Shown here: piece by piece, positions 14,277-23,891 of the stretch
Position numbering within the stretch: the stretch's first letter is position 1
How the letters are laid out: every line of letters starts with the position of its first letter
Source of the DNA: a virus
Taxonomy: Duplodnaviria; Heunggongvirae; Uroviricota; Caudoviricetes
IMG/VR virus record: IMGVR_UViG_3300025896_000021
DNA: 23,891 bases
Reading direction: 5' to 3' (one strand)
Program-made: the position numbers and the translations under genes
Notes under the pieces: model-generated
What the model was told of the DNA's origin: nothing
The model's database searches: none
The model's input: the letters and a program-made list of their open reading frames with translations, nothing else

Positions 14277-15296
14277 TTAGTCGCCGCCCTTGAGCAAAAA
14301 CTTGTTAGAAATTGCCTTGAAGGACACTTGTTTTTCGTTACACTTGAACACAAGACCTTCACGTTCTGGTCCATTGATATCGCCCATTACAGACTTACCT
14401 TCTGCAAGTTGCAGCAATGATTCAACTGATTCAATTAGCTCAGTGTTGCGGTGAAGCACAGGGCAGTGATTCAATCCAAACACTTCTACAAACGCCTTAC
14501 GTTCAGCAGGAGTGTAGTAACGTCCTGCATCAATATCGTAAATGTCGTAAACATAAAAGTCTTGGTCACGCATCTTGTACTTGTTACCTTGAATACCGTT
14601 GCCAATCAGTTCACCTTGAACTGCAAGGTTACCACCTGCAATCTTCAACTTTTCTTCTAGGTCGTGCTTAAGAGCAGCACGCCACAGTGAATTATCTTCG
14701 TTGCGTTTGAGGTCAAGGTTGCGTGAACACACACCAACATAGTCATCAATACGATAAACAGTCATTGACGAACCATCTAACTTTTCAGTCACTTCCCAAG
14801 ATAGATTCTCAGTCTTCCACACTTCCAACTCTACTGACAAGTTTTGAATACGCTCTTGGTCAGTCTTGGGAATCACTGAAGGGAACATGCCCTTGACTTC
14901 GCCTGCAAGTGCTGCGGGGATTGGTGCTTCGTACTTGGTGATACCGAGAAATTCAGATACATCATCACCGATCGCCATATCATTTGGAAATAACTTCACA
15001 GATTCTGGAGACAGTAACAGCCCTTGCGACAATTGACCACGCAACTTCACAGTACGGAGACGTTCGCCTTCAACACCTTCAAAAGTCTTAGCATAGTGTC
15101 CGGACTTGGTCAAGAACGGTGCGATAGTAGAGGGGATGAACGAATCAATTTCGCAATATACTGCCAGATCACCAGCAGTATATTCACCCTTCTTTACTAC
15201 GCAGGTCCAGCCACCTACGATAGCGCATTCAATTGCATCAGCGCCCACAATAGGACGCAGTGCATCAATCTTTCTAATAGTTGCCATCTTACGCAT
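14277..15296 (-). CDS. RNA ligase, DRB0094/Rnl2-like family with N-terminal OB module
   Basis: Motif I VTEKLDGSS, VCSRN, VQGELIG, FYVYDIYD, motif IV REGLVFK, motif V SFKAISN; N-terminal PIVGADAIECAIVGGWTCVVKKG and LRTVKLRGQLSQGLL. Confidence 0.9.
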   Translation of the reverse strand: MRKMATIRKIDALRPIVGADAIECAIVGGWTCVVKKGEYTAGDLAVYCEIDSFIPSTIAPFLTKSGHYAKTFEGVEGERLRTVKLRGQLSQGLLLSPESVKLFPNDMAIGDDVSEFLGITKYEAPIPAALAGEVKGMFPSVIPKTDQERIQNLSVELEVWKTENLSWEVTEKLDGSSMTVYRIDDYVGVCSRNLDLKRNEDNSLWRAALKHDLEEKLKIAGGNLAVQGELIGNGIQGNKYKMRDQDFYVYDIYDIDAGRYYTPAERKAFVEVFGLNHCPVLHRNTELIESVESLLQLAEGKSVMGDINGPEREGLVFKCNEKQVSFKAISNKFLLKGGD

Positions 15297-19731: not shown

Positions 19732-20493
19732 TTATGTGCTATATATTTGAGCTAATGATTTTAGGATAATGGCTTCTCGTTGCTGCTTAGTTTTAGCTCC
19801 AAGAATAGTGATATTGTATAGTTGGTTATTTGCATTGATTAGCATAGTTATACAATAACCAGCAGCATTAGTAAACCCAGTCTTGATAGTGATTATACCT
19901 TGCTGACCAAAGTACTTTATGGTAGGACTAGTAGACAATTTAGTATCACGTTTGCCCCTTGAATAATGAGTAACTAGATTATGAGATTGTGCTGCTGTTT
20001 GCACTATATCAAATGCACTTACCGCTTTAGTGAGTTTTACAATATCATCTACTGTACTAAAGTTCATTGCACTTAGTCCAGTTGGTTCTACAAACCCAGT
20101 ATGTGACATATTCAACTCGGTTGCATGTTTGTTCATAGTTTCAACAAACTTTACTTTGCCACCGGGGAAGTTTTCAGCTAGAGTTATCGCAGCTAGGTTA
20201 TCGCTACTGATTAATGATAGCTTGACTAAATCCATTCTGGTTAGAATCATTCCTTTACTAATCTTGGTATTAGTAATTCTATTGCCAGTAACGGTCAATC
20301 GTTCATCTAACGATTGGTGCTGTGTTAGTACAGTATAAACTGTCATTAACTTGCTGATACTAGCTATACTAACTTTCTCACCTTGCTGGTTACTGCTTAC
20401 TACTTGATTGCTGGTTAAATTATAGATAATCGTGCTGGTGTCTGCCAAAGCTAGTAATGGCAACAATAACAGTATTAAAATAATTTTACGCAT
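19732..20493 (-). CDS. D-alanyl-D-alanine carboxy/endopeptidase, peptidase S11 (PBP5/PBP7-like), secreted
   Basis: Signal peptide; SxxK (ASISKLMT), SxN (SSDN) and KTG (IKTGFTNAAG); GMSHTGFVEPTGL-like segment. Confidence 0.9.
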   Translation of the reverse strand: MRKIILILLLLPLLALADTSTIIYNLTSNQVVSSNQQGEKVSIASISKLMTVYTVLTQHQSLDERLTVTGNRITNTKISKGMILTRMDLVKLSLISSDNLAAITLAENFPGGKVKFVETMNKHATELNMSHTGFVEPTGLSAMNFSTVDDIVKLTKAVSAFDIVQTAAQSHNLVTHYSRGKRDTKLSTSPTIKYFGQQGIITIKTGFTNAAGYCITMLINANNQLYNITILGAKTKQQREAIILKSLAQIYST

Positions 20494-21446: not shown

Positions 21447-21673
21447 TTTTTAACTCCAAAATGTTCTTTAATCTCTTGAATAGGATGTAAGTATTCTTCA
21501 CCTGGTCTACTCATTCTAACAGAATAAGGAGCAATAATATCAATACACTCCTGCACAATCAACTCGGCGAACTTTTCAAGGTTATAGTCATACTCGCCAG
21601 CAGTACACTTGCCAGGGCGAGGCCAGAGGCTCTGAGCACCGTCTAACCAAAGTTGTTTAATTCGTTCGTTCAT
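21443..21673 (-). CDS. MNERIK...FAELIV...HFGVKK family protein, copy 3
   Basis: Motif blocks shared; ATGA overlap with the ligase gene. Confidence 0.85.
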   Translation of the reverse strand: MNERIKQLWLDGAQSLWPRPGKCTAGEYDYNLEKFAELIVQECIDIIAPYSVRMSRPGEEYLHPIQEIKEHFGVKK

Positions 21674-22566
21674 ACCATCTCCAAATAGTTACGCACCCAT
21701 GATAGGCGTGATTGTTCGTCCAAGGCAGTGTAGTCAACAATGTTAGCCCGAATAGCATCCACTAGTGGATAATATTCTTCATCAAGATTTTTCTTGATAT
21801 CTGCTTCCATGTTCACTAACTTGTCAGTACGAGGATTGCGGGCAACCCACTTGCTGGTCAAGTAGTATGGACTTTTGATCTTTGCAGATACTTTAAAGTC
21901 CTCAGTGTAGAATACAAAGCCTTCGTGCTTAACAGTCTTAACTTCTTTCAACACTTCACCCAATGTGCAACGCTTCCATTCCACTTGGTGATCCGACAAT
22001 GCATATTGGTGATACAAGCTAAGTCCATCGTTTTGACTACGGCTTTCCCAAGTCTTTTCACGATAGCCCAGCAAATACAGTCCTGGCTTTTCTACAATGA
22101 TATGTGGGTCATTTTCATGCACACATTCAAACATAAAAGTTAGGGTAGGAAAACCACTTACATATCGTTCAAAAGTTTCACGCCGACGGTCGATAAAGGA
22201 GTTAGCCATATCAACATAGTCGTTAGCAGTTGATCCAGTTGTGGACACTAACAACTTTCCGTTGTACCAAGTCACTGCAACCATAAAGCCATTGACCTTA
22301 CGAAAGCATTCCACTATGGTATCTTCACTTAACACAGGAGCCTTAGCTTCTACGCCATAGTTGTAGATTTTAGTGAATGGACGTTGCACCACATTGAAGT
22401 CAGCATCTACGATAGTACCGCGGCATTCTTCCAAGTAGTCGTTCCACAAGTTATCGTAGAACACACGCTTGGAATACTTTAGCACATAGATACCATCGCC
22501 GGCAGACTTCATAGAAACCAACTTTGGGTTAGCTAATACAAACTCTTTCAATTCATCCTTGTTCAT
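21670..22566 (-). CDS. rnlA: RNA ligase, T4 Rnl1 (RnlA) family
   Basis: ECRG...RPFTKIYN N-terminal motifs, motif I FRKVNGFM, FMFEC, motif IV HEGFVF, motif V AKIKSPYY. Confidence 0.85.
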   Translation of the reverse strand: MNKDELKEFVLANPKLVSMKSAGDGIYVLKYSKRVFYDNLWNDYLEECRGTIVDADFNVVQRPFTKIYNYGVEAKAPVLSEDTIVECFRKVNGFMVAVTWYNGKLLVSTTGSTANDYVDMANSFIDRRRETFERYVSGFPTLTFMFECVHENDPHIIVEKPGLYLLGYREKTWESRSQNDGLSLYHQYALSDHQVEWKRCTLGEVLKEVKTVKHEGFVFYTEDFKVSAKIKSPYYLTSKWVARNPRTDKLVNMEADIKKNLDEEYYPLVDAIRANIVDYTALDEQSRLSWVRNYLEMV

Positions 22567-22725: not shown

Positions 22726-23268
22726 TTAGTGGTGAGAACGAATCTCACCCTTCAATGCGTCTTTAACCATCATATCAAAATCTGATACGACACGACCAGT
22801 ACTGTCAAAAGCTACATCACGGGCACGATACTTTTCCATGCCAGTCACTGCTCCATGAACGTGGCCATAAAAGTGAACTGAACCGCGGTGCATTTGATCC
22901 CATTCCCAGATAGGGTAATGCATCATAATGACCATTTGACCATCGTGATTGTATCTCAGGTACTGATGCACTTCTTTGAACTCTGCACGGAATGCAGGGT
23001 CGTTCAACAGTTTGCGGTCGTGATTACCTTCAATCAGAATCTTAGTGCCGTTCAGTCTACGCAGAATTGCAACTGCATCCTTGGCTGACAAGAATGCAAA
23101 GTCACCCAAAATGAATGTTTCATCTTCTGGAGCAACGTCACGGTTCCACTCATGTATCATTTGCTCTCGCATATGATCGGTGTCAGTAAAGCCTGCTCGG
23201 GTTACTGGGCAGAACTTCATAATATTTGCGTGACCAAAGTGTAAGTCACTAGTGATAAATTTTCTCAT
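22726..23268 (-). CDS. Calcineurin-like metallophosphoesterase
   Basis: DxH (SDLHFGH), GD (ILGDF), GNHD, HYP and GHVH motifs. Confidence 0.9.
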   Translation of the reverse strand: MRKFITSDLHFGHANIMKFCPVTRAGFTDTDHMREQMIHEWNRDVAPEDETFILGDFAFLSAKDAVAILRRLNGTKILIEGNHDRKLLNDPAFRAEFKEVHQYLRYNHDGQMVIMMHYPIWEWDQMHRGSVHFYGHVHGAVTGMEKYRARDVAFDSTGRVVSDFDMMVKDALKGEIRSHH

Positions 23269-23291: not shown

Positions 23292-23320
23292 ATTATAGCA
23301 CACCATGCAATTAGTGTCAA
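23292..23320 (-). promoter_or_regulatory. sigma70 promoter TTGACA-17-TATAAT, extended -10
   Basis: Perfect consensus upstream of the phosphoesterase-Rnl1 operon. Confidence 0.9.
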
Positions 23321-23410
23321 GTAAACACCCTAGTTGCTCTGATATAAATTAATGTAATAAAATAAAGAACGTAAGGTATGCGAATGTTCGTCTAGGGTGT
23401 TTAATTGACA
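23315..23410. repeat. 19-bp inverted repeat (18/19) flanking a 58-bp A/T-rich spacer
   Basis: TGTCAAGTAAACACCCTAG (23315-23333) versus CTAGGGTGTTTAATTGACA (23392-23410). Confidence 0.85.
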
Positions 23411-23435
23411 ATAGGTCACCAAGTGACCTATTTTT
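23410..23435 (+). terminator. 10-bp hairpin AATAGGTCAC-caa-GTGACCTATT followed by a T-run
   Basis: Perfect stem; T-tract on the plus side. On the minus strand it could cap the 3' end of the candidate ncRNA. Confidence 0.6.
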
Positions 23436-23440
23436 ATAGA

Positions 23441-23810
23441 ATTAGTGTTAGGCTACTCACACCACATGAGCCCCTAACTGAGCAGTTACTCTGTCCACAA
23501 CATTTATTCTTCTGGAGTAGGCGTTATACCTCACCCAATGCGTTCCCGCTACTCCTTAATGGGAGACGGATGGTCAATGCACTGCACACCTAGCACTCTC
23601 TTTGGTGACTGCCCCACCCCCGTTGATTACGTGTACGGGATCACGGGTTTTTAATTTGATACATCAACAAGTGCTTACCCTGAGAAAGGATTTACGGCTA
23701 GCCAGCACCTCGATGTTGTTAAGAAGGATGTCTCCATTGCTATCTTTTAAACTTCAATATATCAAAAAGAGAACAGATACGTAATTGCTCAGAGGTATCT
23801 GCCGTGTTAC
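23441..23810 (-). ncRNA. Candidate large structured non-coding RNA (family not identified)
   Basis: No credible ORF; serial helices that pair better on the minus strand (G-U pairs); late motif upstream and hairpin downstream. Confidence 0.55.
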
Positions 23811-23813
23811 AAC

Positions 23814-23821
23814 TATTTAGC
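23814..23821 (-). promoter_or_regulatory. Late-promoter-like motif GCTAAATA
   Basis: Immediately after the upstream stop codon and before the candidate ncRNA. Confidence 0.55.
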
Positions 23822-23890
23822 TTATTCAGCCAAATCGTAGCGACTGTTCATCACTGCCTTAAGCATGATAGCTTCTGGAGTGAAAGCGTC
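23822..23890 (-). CDS. 3' end of a gene entering from the right (...DAFTPEAIMLKAVMNSRYDLAE*)
   Basis: Open frame from the window edge to TAA 23822-23824. Confidence 0.5.
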   Translation of the reverse strand, partial: DAFTPEAIMLKAVMNSRYDLAE

Positions 23891-23891
23891 T

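What the first reader, a model, noticed from the sequence alone, without database searches (positions are those of the whole stretch)
23441..23810. Candidate ~370-nt structured ncRNA expressed from a late-type promoter
Seen on the minus strand, after GCTAAATA: GGCAGATAC/GTATCTGTT (23795-23803 with 23772-23780, two G-U); AGGTGCT/AGCACTT closing a junction with GGCTAGCC and TCCT/AGGG; CCCGT/ACGGG; GGTGG/TCACC; GGAGTAG/CTACTCC (23549-23555 with 23514-23520); GACAG/CTG(C)TC; GTTAGG/CCTAAC (23473-23478 with 23447-23452) enclosing CTCAT/GTGAG; then a 10-bp terminal hairpin. The G-U pairs become A-C mismatches on the plus strand. It is the only long non-coding stretch in an otherwise gene-packed window. 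Known: aquatic phages carry large ornate RNAs of unknown function (GOLLD, ROOL and others). Inference: a member or new class of these. The first stem plus U-run may instead terminate the upstream gene, making the RNA shorter.
Basis: partly seen in the sequence, partly recalled or inferred. Interest (0 to 1): 0.8.

Follow-up and report, generated by a model that had tools for sequence, protein, structure and literature searches.

The report
New phage tRNA-island structured RNA
The non-coding stretch is real structured RNA: its conserved part is a roughly 205-base, doubly pseudoknotted RNA gene found in more than a hundred lake jumbo-phage contigs, usually slotted between tRNA genes and here placed right after a Ro60-like RNA-binding protein gene; it matches no catalogued RNA family and its job is unknown.

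Summary
Comparative data support most of them, but the element is composite, not one 370-nt RNA.

**Conserved unit.** It is a ~205-nt core at window 23651-23444, minus strand. A covariance model finds it full-length in about 90 viral contigs (81 distinct sequences). Of 34 modelled pairs, 30 show compensatory changes. Cells are 83% paired, against 65% in shuffles and 37-54% when partners are slid. Two pseudoknots co-vary (z -8.5 and -11.7).

**Accessory parts in the window's subfamily.** These are a 5' hairpin, a ~110-nt 5' domain, a hairpin, and a 3' domain closed by a 10-11-bp stem with a GACGAA motif.

**Context elsewhere.** The core usually sits inside same-strand tRNA arrays. Often a tRNA ends 0-3 nt before it and another starts 4-19 nt after it.

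**Upstream gene.** It is DUF2828/vWA, and its model folds like Ro60 (top 12 PDB hits). Even so, RNA and Ro-like gene can each occur without the other.

**Family membership.** Rfam gives no match to YrlA, GOLLD, ROOL, RNase P or tmRNA.

**Verdict.** This is a new class of phage tRNA-island RNA, probably cut out by tRNA processing and acting in the tRNA and RNA-repair sphere. The "late promoter" remains untested.

The parts
23822..23889 (-). 3' end of the Ro60-like (DUF2828 + vWA) gene, cut by the window end; stop codon TAA at 23824-23822
   Evidence: The frame reads ...FTPEAIMLKAVMNSRYDLAE*, matching the C-terminus of full-length homologue P0003. P0003 hits PF11443, PF25043 and PHROG 850 'RNA-binding protein'. 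The top 12 Foldseek PDB hits of its AF2 model are all Ro60/TROVE.
23814..23819 (-). TAAATA motif, a possible promoter element 2 nt after the stop codon
   Evidence: The motif is conserved after the stop codon in L002, L007, L018 and, as TTTAAATAA, in L025, L013 and L056. In the window, 11-12 of its 13 copies lie 4-35 nt upstream of ORF starts. Genome-wide the enrichment is not unique to this hexamer.
23772..23803 (-). P1, a 9-bp 5' hairpin (23803-23795 with 23780-23772)
   Evidence: Read directly from the sequence. L002 provides one compensatory A-U to G-C change. L025-type relatives carry a different hairpin after their TAAATA.
23655..23766 (-). 5' accessory domain. Closing stem Pa is 23766-23759 with 23662-23655. 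Pc is 23710-23704 with 23675-23669. The 8-nt palindrome GGCTAGCC lies at 23703-23696.
   Evidence: Found in only 7 distinct sequences, always directly 5' of the core. Pa shows U-A, U.G and C-G exchanges. Pc shows G.U/G-C/A-U and G-C/A-U exchanges.
23444..23651 (-). Core RNA, the conserved ~205-nt gene. P2: 23639-23635/23623-23619. Pseudoknot S1: 23618-23615/23607-23604. P4: 23613-23610/23595-23592. P5: 23590-23588/23574-23572. Pseudoknot PK2: 23584-23579/23541-23536. P6: 23565-23562/23555-23552. P8: 23536-23529/23521-23514. P9: 23492-23491/23482-23481. P10: 23478-23473/23452-23447. P11: 23470-23466/23460-23456, with loop GUGGU.
   Evidence: Model R1 scores the window at 137 bits, E about 1e-44. 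Covariation was counted on A5 and A6. The pseudoknots were tested by cognate versus permuted duplex energies. The unit boundaries come from flanking tRNAs in relatives.
23411..23431 (-). 9-bp hairpin (ATAGGTCAC / GTGACCTAT, 3-nt loop) between the core and the 3' domain
   Evidence: Read directly from the sequence. Relatives have a longer conserved hairpin with a GAUAAGA loop at the same position. The scan does not call it a terminator.
23323..23402 (-). 3' stem domain (model R2). An 11-bp closing stem pairs 23402-23392 with 23333-23323. GACGAA (23392-23387) lies next to the stem, followed by GAAC/GUUC and an A/U-rich interior.
   Evidence: On A4, 10 predicted pairs include 3 with compensatory changes and none broken in 8 sequences. 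R2 hits occur only directly 3' of the core, in 13 loci.
23292..23320 (-). Consensus sigma-70 promoter (TTGACA, 17-nt spacer, TG, TATAAT) for the downstream phosphoesterase gene
   Evidence: One search reports 12 of 12 consensus matches. Relatives have the same arrangement ahead of tRNA-Leu.
22726..23268 (-). Metallophosphoesterase (P0001), the downstream neighbour
   Evidence: PHROG 547 'phosphoesterase'. It is 41-44% identical to annotated phosphoesterases and phosphohydrolases of large (about 110-130 kb) Vibrio phages.
21670..22566 (-). T4 Rnl1-like RNA ligase (P0002), part of the RNA-repair neighbourhood
   Evidence: PHROG 562, E 4e-49. The sequence has a KxNG motif.

Best explanation
The locus encodes a stable, trans-acting non-coding RNA of a previously uncatalogued family.

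**What is shown.**
- Its conserved unit is a ~205-nt RNA (window 23651-23444, minus strand).
- It folds into hairpins P2, P5, P6, P8, P9 and a P10/P11 arm.
- It has two pseudoknots. In one, the strand after P2 pairs into the loop of P4. In the other, the P5 loop pairs with the strand after P6.
- In most relatives the unit occupies a slot in a same-strand tRNA array.
- In the window's subfamily the gene sits directly behind a Ro60-like gene. There it has acquired a 5' hairpin, an extra 5' domain and a 3' domain closed by a long stem with a GACGAA motif.

**What is inferred.**
- The RNA's ends are made by the host's tRNA-processing enzymes. Its 5' end comes from 3' processing of the preceding tRNA. 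Its 3' end comes from RNase P cutting the following tRNA.
- In the window's subfamily it may have its own TAAATA start signal.
- The 3' stem domain looks Y-RNA-like.
- The RNA most likely works in the phage's contest over tRNAs and RNA damage. It would bind a protein or RNA of that sphere as scaffold, decoy or cofactor. The Ro60-like ring is the leading candidate partner in phages that have it. Two RNA ligases and a phosphoesterase lie nearby.
For: **Homology and structure.**
- nhmmer and CM hits cover the whole region in L025, L056 and L013, and the core in many more loci.
- On 81 distinct sequences, 82.9% of cells are paired versus 65.3% in shuffles (0 of 500 shuffles reach it). Of 34 pairs, 30 have compensatory changes. 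The covariation score is 0.488, against at most 0.155 for slid partners.
- Pseudoknots S1 and PK2 give z -8.5 and -11.7, while control segment pairs give about 0.

**Not coding.**

**Discrete unit in tRNA arrays.**
- 68 of 92 hits have a same-strand tRNA within 300 nt.
- In 28 hits a tRNA with encoded CCA ends 0-3 nt before the core.
- In 11 hits a tRNA starts 4-19 nt after the core.
- Both flanks are tRNAs in L212, L181, L199, L172, L192 and L207.

**Phage-specific.** About 78 of 80 pattern matches in viral contigs are full-length hits. None of 80 matches in prokaryotic genomes is.

**Copy number.** The genomes checked hold one copy each.

**Ro60-like neighbour.**
- Fold search.
- The same protein family in a mycobacteriophage is followed by a YrlA match.
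- The Ro-like gene is immediately upstream of the RNA in 18 distinct loci and 1-8 kb away in 16 more.

**RNA-repair neighbours.**
Against: - No transcript data exist, so expression, ends and stability are inferred.
- The Ro link is not obligate. G004 (99% complete) has the RNA inside a tRNA cluster but no Ro-like gene. G014 (complete, terminal repeats) has the Ro-like gene but no RNA.
- The Ro-like gene itself lives in the tRNA and repair island, so adjacency may reflect shared location only.
- The core lacks Y-RNA hallmarks. It has no terminal 5'-3' stem, no GNCGAA motif and no T or D arms, and the YrlA model does not match.
- The window's contig (73.7 kb) has no tRNA gene, so tRNA-type processing cannot be argued for this copy directly.
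- The TAAATA evidence is weak.
Confidence: 0.6

Rival explanations
1. It is a bona fide Y RNA (YrlA/Yrl type), the dedicated RNA partner of the upstream Ro60-like protein. It would tether that ring to an effector, as bacterial Y RNAs tether Rsr to PNPase.
For: - It lies on the same strand directly after a Ro60-like gene. This position meets the 4-kb, same-strand criterion of PMC4201824.
- A mycobacteriophage homologue of the protein has a YrlA match in the equivalent gap.
- The 3' domain (23402-23323) has a covariation-supported 5'-3' stem with GACGAA beside it. These are the features used to call Yrl1 and Yrl2 in Thermus phage phiLo (PMC12135203).
Against: - The YrlA model finds nothing in the window at E up to 10, or in 7 relatives at E up to 1.
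- The core has no T or D arms and no terminal stem.
- The core occurs in a near-complete genome without the Ro-like gene, and the Ro-like gene occurs without the core.
- The GACGAA domain is confined to one subfamily. It follows the core, not Ro-like genes, in other loci.
- GACGAA lacks the trailing G of GNCGAAN0-1G.
Confidence: 0.15
2. It is a ribozyme or tRNA-handling RNA, for example one that docks tRNA 3' ends through the conserved UGUGGUG loop. Its UGGUG is complementary to CACCA, as UGGN is in T-boxes and GGU is in RNase P L15.
For: - The fold is compact and doubly pseudoknotted, with invariant single-stranded blocks: CCCG at the 5' end, GGACAG.GUAAC, and the GUGGU loop.
- It is obligately associated with tRNA arrays.
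- The complementarity to tRNA 3' ends was noted by inspection only.
Against: - No Rfam ribozyme or RNase P model matches.
- The loop is GUAGU in L007 and L087, and is replaced altogether in L066 and in the divergent paralogues.
- The search pattern used to enlarge the family required this loop, so its apparent invariance is partly ascertainment.
- There is no biochemical evidence.
Confidence: 0.1
3. It is a cis-acting element: a 3' UTR or terminator of the Ro-like gene, or a leader or riboswitch for the phosphoesterase gene.
For: - It lies between two same-strand genes.
- In L008 and L006 the core starts 2-3 nt after the stop codon with no promoter-like motif.
- A hairpin and an A/U-rich run lie near its 3' end.
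Against: - The core keeps its structure whatever flanks it: tRNAs on both sides, a PrfH-like gene, a methyltransferase-like ORF, or the phosphoesterase.
- The phosphoesterase has its own consensus promoter downstream of the RNA.
- No terminator is called, and P1's U-run is not conserved.
Confidence: 0.05
4. It is a divergent member of GOLLD or ROOL, the large ornate phage RNAs.
For: It shares their ecology and context: lake metagenomes, phages, tRNA islands and pseudoknots (PMC12286853).
Against: - No match to RF01998 or RF03087, or to any other family, even at E up to 10.
- The core is ~205 nt, against 600-800 nt for those RNAs.
- The helices differ.
Confidence: 0.02

Closest known systems
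GOLLD and ROOL RNAs (Rfam RF01998, RF03087)
   Same: They are phage or prophage RNAs of unknown function, often next to tRNA islands, with multiple pseudoknots. GOLLD was first seen in lake metagenomes, and tRNAs can be embedded in or adjacent to it (PMC12286853).
   Different: The core here is three to four times smaller. It shows no sequence or covariance-model similarity. It sits as a tRNA-sized slot inside arrays with tRNAs abutting both ends. There is no evidence of multimerisation, apart from conserved 8-nt palindromes in the accessory 5' domain.
Bacterial and phage Y RNAs (YrlA RF02553; Yrl1 and Yrl2 of Thermus phage phiLo)
   Same: They are encoded beside a Ro60-type gene on the same strand and are linked to RNA-repair genes. 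The window's 3' domain has the stem-plus-CGAA look of Y RNAs.
   Different: The core has no tRNA-like T or D arms, no terminal stem and no YrlA model match. It has two pseudoknots. It also occurs in genomes that lack the Ro-like gene.
Phage T4 species 1 and species 2 stable RNAs (rnaC, rnaD) in the T4 tRNA cluster (from my own knowledge, not tested here)
   Same: They are small stable RNAs of unknown function, encoded within a phage tRNA gene cluster and released by processing of the tRNA transcript.
   Different: No sequence comparison was made here. The T4 RNAs are shorter (about 120-140 nt) and are not known to be pseudoknotted.

Membership tests
YrlA / bacterial Y RNA | Encoded within about 4 kb of a Ro60 (TROVE + vWA) gene, on the same strand | tested here: met
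   The Ro-like gene's stop is at 23824-23822 and the RNA follows on the same strand. The Ro60 fold is supported. The link is not universal in the family.
YrlA / bacterial Y RNA | tRNA-like module with conserved T and D stem-loops, as captured by Rfam RF02553 | tested here: not met
   No YrlA hit in the window at E up to 10, or in 7 relatives at E up to 1. As a positive control, the mycobacteriophage Clautastrophe gap scores 39 bits, E 2.5e-7.
YrlA / bacterial Y RNA | GNCGAAN0-1G motif near the 5' end, plus a stem formed by the 5' and 3' ends | tested here: inconclusive
   The core has neither feature, and the covariation scan finds no partner for its 5' end. The accessory 3' domain has an 11-bp terminal stem with GACGAA beside it, but without the trailing G.
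YrlA / bacterial Y RNA | Binds Ro60/Rsr | not testable with these tools
   This needs EMSA or co-purification with the phage protein.
GOLLD / ROOL | Match to the family covariance model; length 600-800 nt | tested here: not met
   No Rfam hit at gathering or permissive thresholds. The core is ~205 nt, and the whole non-coding locus is about 520 nt.
GOLLD / ROOL | Phage-encoded, near tRNA islands, with multiple pseudoknots | tested here: met
   Searches show the tRNA arrays. Searches show the two pseudoknots.
tRNA / tmRNA | Cloverleaf or tRNA-like domain detectable by ARAGORN or Rfam | tested here: not met
   ARAGORN finds nothing in the window or on the whole contig. The 'overlaps' in relatives are flanking tRNAs that abut the model's 12-nt flanks.
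RNase P RNA | Match to RNase P models; P4 helix with conserved regions CR-I and CR-V | tested here: not met
   No Rfam hit. The 5' A-rich-CCCGGCU block resembles CR-V by eye only, and no conserved partner strand was found.
Protein-coding gene | A conserved open frame, with indels in multiples of three | tested here: not met
   Lengths range from 221 to 242 nt and spread over all residues mod 3. The longest stop-free frame differs in strand and frame among the 78 sequences.

The most novel reading that the evidence does not exclude
The ~205-nt core may be a phage-encoded tRNA-handling RNA, either a ribozyme or an RNA cofactor. It would dock tRNA 3' CACCA ends through its near-invariant UGGUG loop. 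It would then work with the phage's Ro60-like ring, RNA ligases and phosphoesterase to process, protect or repair tRNAs under host attack. That would make it a new functional class of RNA made by viruses.
Probability: 0.1. Interest if true: 0.9.

Novelty: new variant of a known kind. Interest (0 to 1): 0.68.

Why it matters
Phage tRNA islands are now seen as weapons in the fight over the translation machinery, yet the non-tRNA RNAs inside them (GOLLD, ROOL, the T4 stable RNAs) remain unexplained.

This family has features that make it useful for that problem:
- It is compact and abundant, with at least 120 viral contigs and 81 distinct sequences.
- Its structure is well constrained, with two pseudoknots and sharply defined ends.
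- It has a plausible set of protein neighbours: a Ro60-like ring, Rnl1- and Rnl2-type ligases, a phosphoesterase and a PrfH-like factor.

At ~205 nt it is far more tractable for structure probing, cryo-EM and binding assays than the 600-800-nt ornate RNAs. It also shows that DUF2828-type phage proteins have the Ro60 fold, which widens the set of phages expected to carry Ro-type ribonucleoproteins.

Tried and rejected
- **Rfam.** Searches at gathering and permissive thresholds on the window and 21 related loci gave only tRNAs and noise.
- **Cultured phages.** blastn of the region against cultured phages gave no match.
- **Folding energy.** Single-sequence MFE z-scores were unremarkable on both strands.
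- **RNAalifold.** On the raw MAFFT alignment it recovered only 9 pairs because the loops were misaligned. This was fixed with a hand-set structure and CM realignment.
- **Long-range 5'-end pairing.** GUUACACU/AGUGUAAC is perfect in the L008 type but is not kept in other subfamilies, so it was rejected (reasoning).
- **P2 loop pseudoknot.** A pseudoknot between the P2 loop (CGUU) and the downstream AACG was not supported: z -1.3, 105 of 1000 permutations.
- **Partner for the 5' CCCG block.** None was found.
- **Model R1 on cultured Ro-like loci.** Synechococcus phage BUCT-ZZ01, Serratia phage BF and a mycobacteriophage gave no hit.
- **Model R1 on distant Ro-like loci.** L092-L140 with 1.5-kb flanks gave hits only in L107, L111 and L112.
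- **Model R2 near other Ro-like genes.** No hit.
- **Pattern scan of prokaryotic genomes.** It returned only chance matches: 0 of 80 were full-length.
- **TAAATA as a specific late promoter.** Genome-wide, its start association (12 of 41) equals that of ATAATA and ATATAA. The genes it precedes are not recognisably late.
- **Literature.** Searches found no description of this RNA.

Full report
**Setting**

The window is the reversed first 23.8 kb of a 73.7-kb IMG/VR contig. CheckV rates the contig 21% complete, which implies a jumbo phage of roughly 350 kb. The finding lies at the contig's very end, on the minus strand.
- Upstream is a truncated ORF whose stop is at 23824-23822.
- Downstream is a metallophosphoesterase gene (23268-22726).
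- After that comes a T4 Rnl1-like RNA ligase.
- A second RNA ligase, of Rnl2 type, lies at 15296-14277.
- The window and the whole contig contain no tRNA gene.

**Observation**

Thermodynamics alone does not single the region out. The MFE z-score is -1.8 on the minus strand and -2.0 on the plus strand. Rfam finds nothing, at gathering thresholds or at E up to 10. The case therefore rests on comparison with relatives.

**Homologues**

The phosphoesterase protein pulled in 80 related viral loci. nhmmer aligned the whole 520-nt non-coding region to longer non-coding regions in L025, L056 and L013. Parts of it aligned to about 20 more loci. Three modules emerged.
- **5' module.** It consists of hairpin P1 plus a ~110-nt domain closed by UUUGAUAU/GUAUCAAA. 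It is found in only 7 distinct sequences.
- **Core.** It spans window 23651-23444 and is shared by all relatives.
- **3' domain.** An 11-bp stem closes it. On alignment A4, 10 predicted pairs include 3 with compensatory changes, and none is broken in 8 sequences. It carries GACGAA next to the stem.

**Core structure**

I set seven helices by eye on an 18-sequence alignment and built a covariance model, R1. The model realigned 20 distinct sequences.

A pattern from the 3' hairpin then found at least 120 viral stretches. Nearly all were full-length R1 hits at 80-217 bits, giving 81 distinct sequences.

On that larger set:
- 82.9% of cells form standard pairs, against 65.3% in column shuffles (0 of 500 shuffles reach the observed value).
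- With partners slid by 1-3 columns, only 37-54% pair.
- 30 of 34 pairs show changes on both sides.
- The covariation score is 0.488, against at most 0.155 for slid partners.
- Some single pairs are striking. One P11 pair reads A-U 29, U-A 26, C-G 22 and G-C 3, with none unpaired.

Two pseudoknots lie outside the nested model. I tested them by comparing duplex energies of cognate segments with segments permuted among sequences.
- The strand after P2 pairs with the interior of the P4 loop: -4.14 versus -2.49 kcal/mol, z -8.5.
- The P5 loop pairs with the strand after P6: -5.37 versus -3.10 kcal/mol, z -11.7.
- Three control segment pairs gave z between -1.0 and +2.6.
- A third candidate pseudoknot failed.

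Its strands belong to P6 and P8.

The abundant conserved G.U pairs fix the minus strand as the RNA strand. The sequences are not coding.

**Context**

Across about 85 distinct loci, the core almost always lies inside same-strand tRNA arrays.
- 68 of 92 hits have a tRNA within 300 nt.
- In 28 hits a tRNA with encoded CCA, most often tRNA-Thr(UGU), ends 0-3 nt before the core's first conserved bases.
- In 11 hits a tRNA, often Met or Gly, starts 4-19 nt after the core's last helix.
- In six loci both flanks are tRNAs.

This fixes the unit at about 205 nt. It implies, by inference, that the unit is released by the nucleases that mature tRNAs.

Genomes checked hold one copy each. Two contigs also carry a divergent second copy between tRNA-Glu and tRNA-Tyr.

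The same pattern in 596 Gb of prokaryotic genomes gave only chance matches: 0 of 80 were full-length. On present evidence the family is viral.

**The upstream gene**

A full-length homologue, P0003 (473 aa), comes from a complete 364-kb phage with terminal repeats.
- It carries DUF2828 and DUF7788 (vWA with a MIDAS motif) and PHROG 850 'RNA-binding protein'.
- Its AlphaFold model has pLDDT 74.5 and pTM 0.76.
- All twelve matches with E <= 0.001, which are also the top twelve, are full-length Ro60/TROVE structures. They come from Thermus phage phiLo, Deinococcus, Xenopus and human, with E from 2e-8 to 7e-5.
- The family is widespread in cultured phages. It includes the mycobacteriophage 'Ro-like RNA binding proteins'.
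- In one such phage, the gap just after the gene holds a YrlA match, which serves as a positive control for the Rfam model.

So the window's arrangement, a Ro60-like gene followed by structured RNA on the same strand, mirrors known Ro/Y-RNA loci (PMC4201824, PMC12135203). Ro/TROVE proteins have been noted in some jumbo phages as parts of RNA-repair systems (PMC7824862).

**Limits of the Ro reading**

- The core has none of the YrlA hallmarks.
- The Ro-like gene is immediately upstream only in the closest subfamily (18 distinct loci). It is 1-8 kb away in 16 others and not seen in the rest.
- A 99%-complete 343-kb genome has the core in a tRNA cluster but no Ro-like gene.
- A complete 165-kb genome has the Ro-like gene but no core.
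- The GACGAA stem domain is Y-RNA-like in appearance. However, it follows the core rather than Ro-like genes, and it is confined to one subfamily.

I therefore treat Ro as the leading candidate partner, not as an established one.

**Promoter**

TAAATA sits 2 nt after the stop codon and 10 nt before P1. It recurs at that place in several relatives. In L025-type loci it is likewise followed by a hairpin.

In the window, 11-12 of 13 copies lie just upstream of ORF starts. Over the whole contig, though, its start association (12 of 41) is matched by other A/T hexamers. The genes it precedes are not recognisably late.

Where the core follows a tRNA or a stop codon directly, there is no such motif. 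The promoter idea is plausible for this subfamily but unproven.

A consensus sigma-70 promoter downstream of the RNA (23320-23292) serves the phosphoesterase gene. This argues against a leader role for the RNA.

**Conclusion**

The finding is a genuine, conserved, pseudoknotted non-coding RNA of a family absent from Rfam 15. I found no description of it in the searchable literature.

In kind, it is closest to the unexplained RNAs of phage tRNA islands (GOLLD, ROOL, the T4 stable RNAs). In this phage, by position, it is also close to Y RNAs. It is a member of none of these.

Its function is inferred only from context. Most likely it is a stable RNA acting with proteins of the tRNA and RNA-repair sphere.

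Noticed in passing
window 23696-23703 (minus strand); L025, L056, L165, L086: An 8-nt perfect palindrome in the 5' domain (GGCTAGCC) stays a perfect palindrome in relatives with different letters (GGTATACC, GGCATGCC, GGTGCACC). In L086 it is instead a GGT-AAA-ACC hairpin. This could be a kissing or dimerisation loop, or a DNA-level protein site.
   Followed up: partly
window 14277-15296 (-), 21670-22566 (-), 22726-23268 (-): The window holds two different RNA ligases: PHROG 968 (which I take to be Rnl2-type) and PHROG 562 (T4 Rnl1-like). It also holds a metallophosphoesterase. Together they form an RNA-repair gene set next to the RNA.
   Followed up: partly
L083 925-1152 and 361-792 (minus strand), in the complete 364-kb phage G002; also L006: Directly after the RNA core lies a PrfH/release-factor-like gene with a GGQ motif. 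It appears split into two ORFs (75 aa and 143 aa) separated by about 130 nt. This could be an intron, a frameshift or a broken gene.
   Followed up: no
L192 5854-6077; L207 14232-14457: A second, divergent copy of the core (26-30 bits) lies between tRNA-Glu and tRNA-Tyr, about 6.5 kb from the main copy. It keeps CCCG, P2 with a CGUU loop, GGACAGAGUAAC and the P10/P11 arm, but its middle part differs.
   Followed up: partly
L074/L075 1570-1735: A short variant of ~166 nt (20 bits) follows the Ro-like gene. It lacks the P10/P11 arm and ends in a T-run.
   Followed up: no
window 23292-23320 (minus strand): A perfect sigma-70 promoter (TTGACA, 17-nt spacer, TG, TATAAT; 12 of 12) sits just after the 3' stem domain. 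The same module precedes tRNA-Leu in relatives.
   Followed up: partly
L145 (Synechococcus phage BUCT-ZZ01) 4480-4815: The unannotated 484-nt gap after this cyanophage's Ro-like gene (50% identical to P0003) holds three tRNA-model matches. Two of them span 113-114 nt, so they may be interrupted or unusually long tRNAs.
   Followed up: no
window 19732-20493 (minus strand): A phage-encoded D-alanyl-D-alanine carboxypeptidase (Peptidase_S11, E 3e-35) has TAAATA 5 nt before its start codon.
   Followed up: no
window 23845-23891: The last 47 bases of the window lie beyond the end of the IMG/VR contig held for this genome. They nevertheless read in frame as the Ro-like protein's C-terminus.
   Followed up: no
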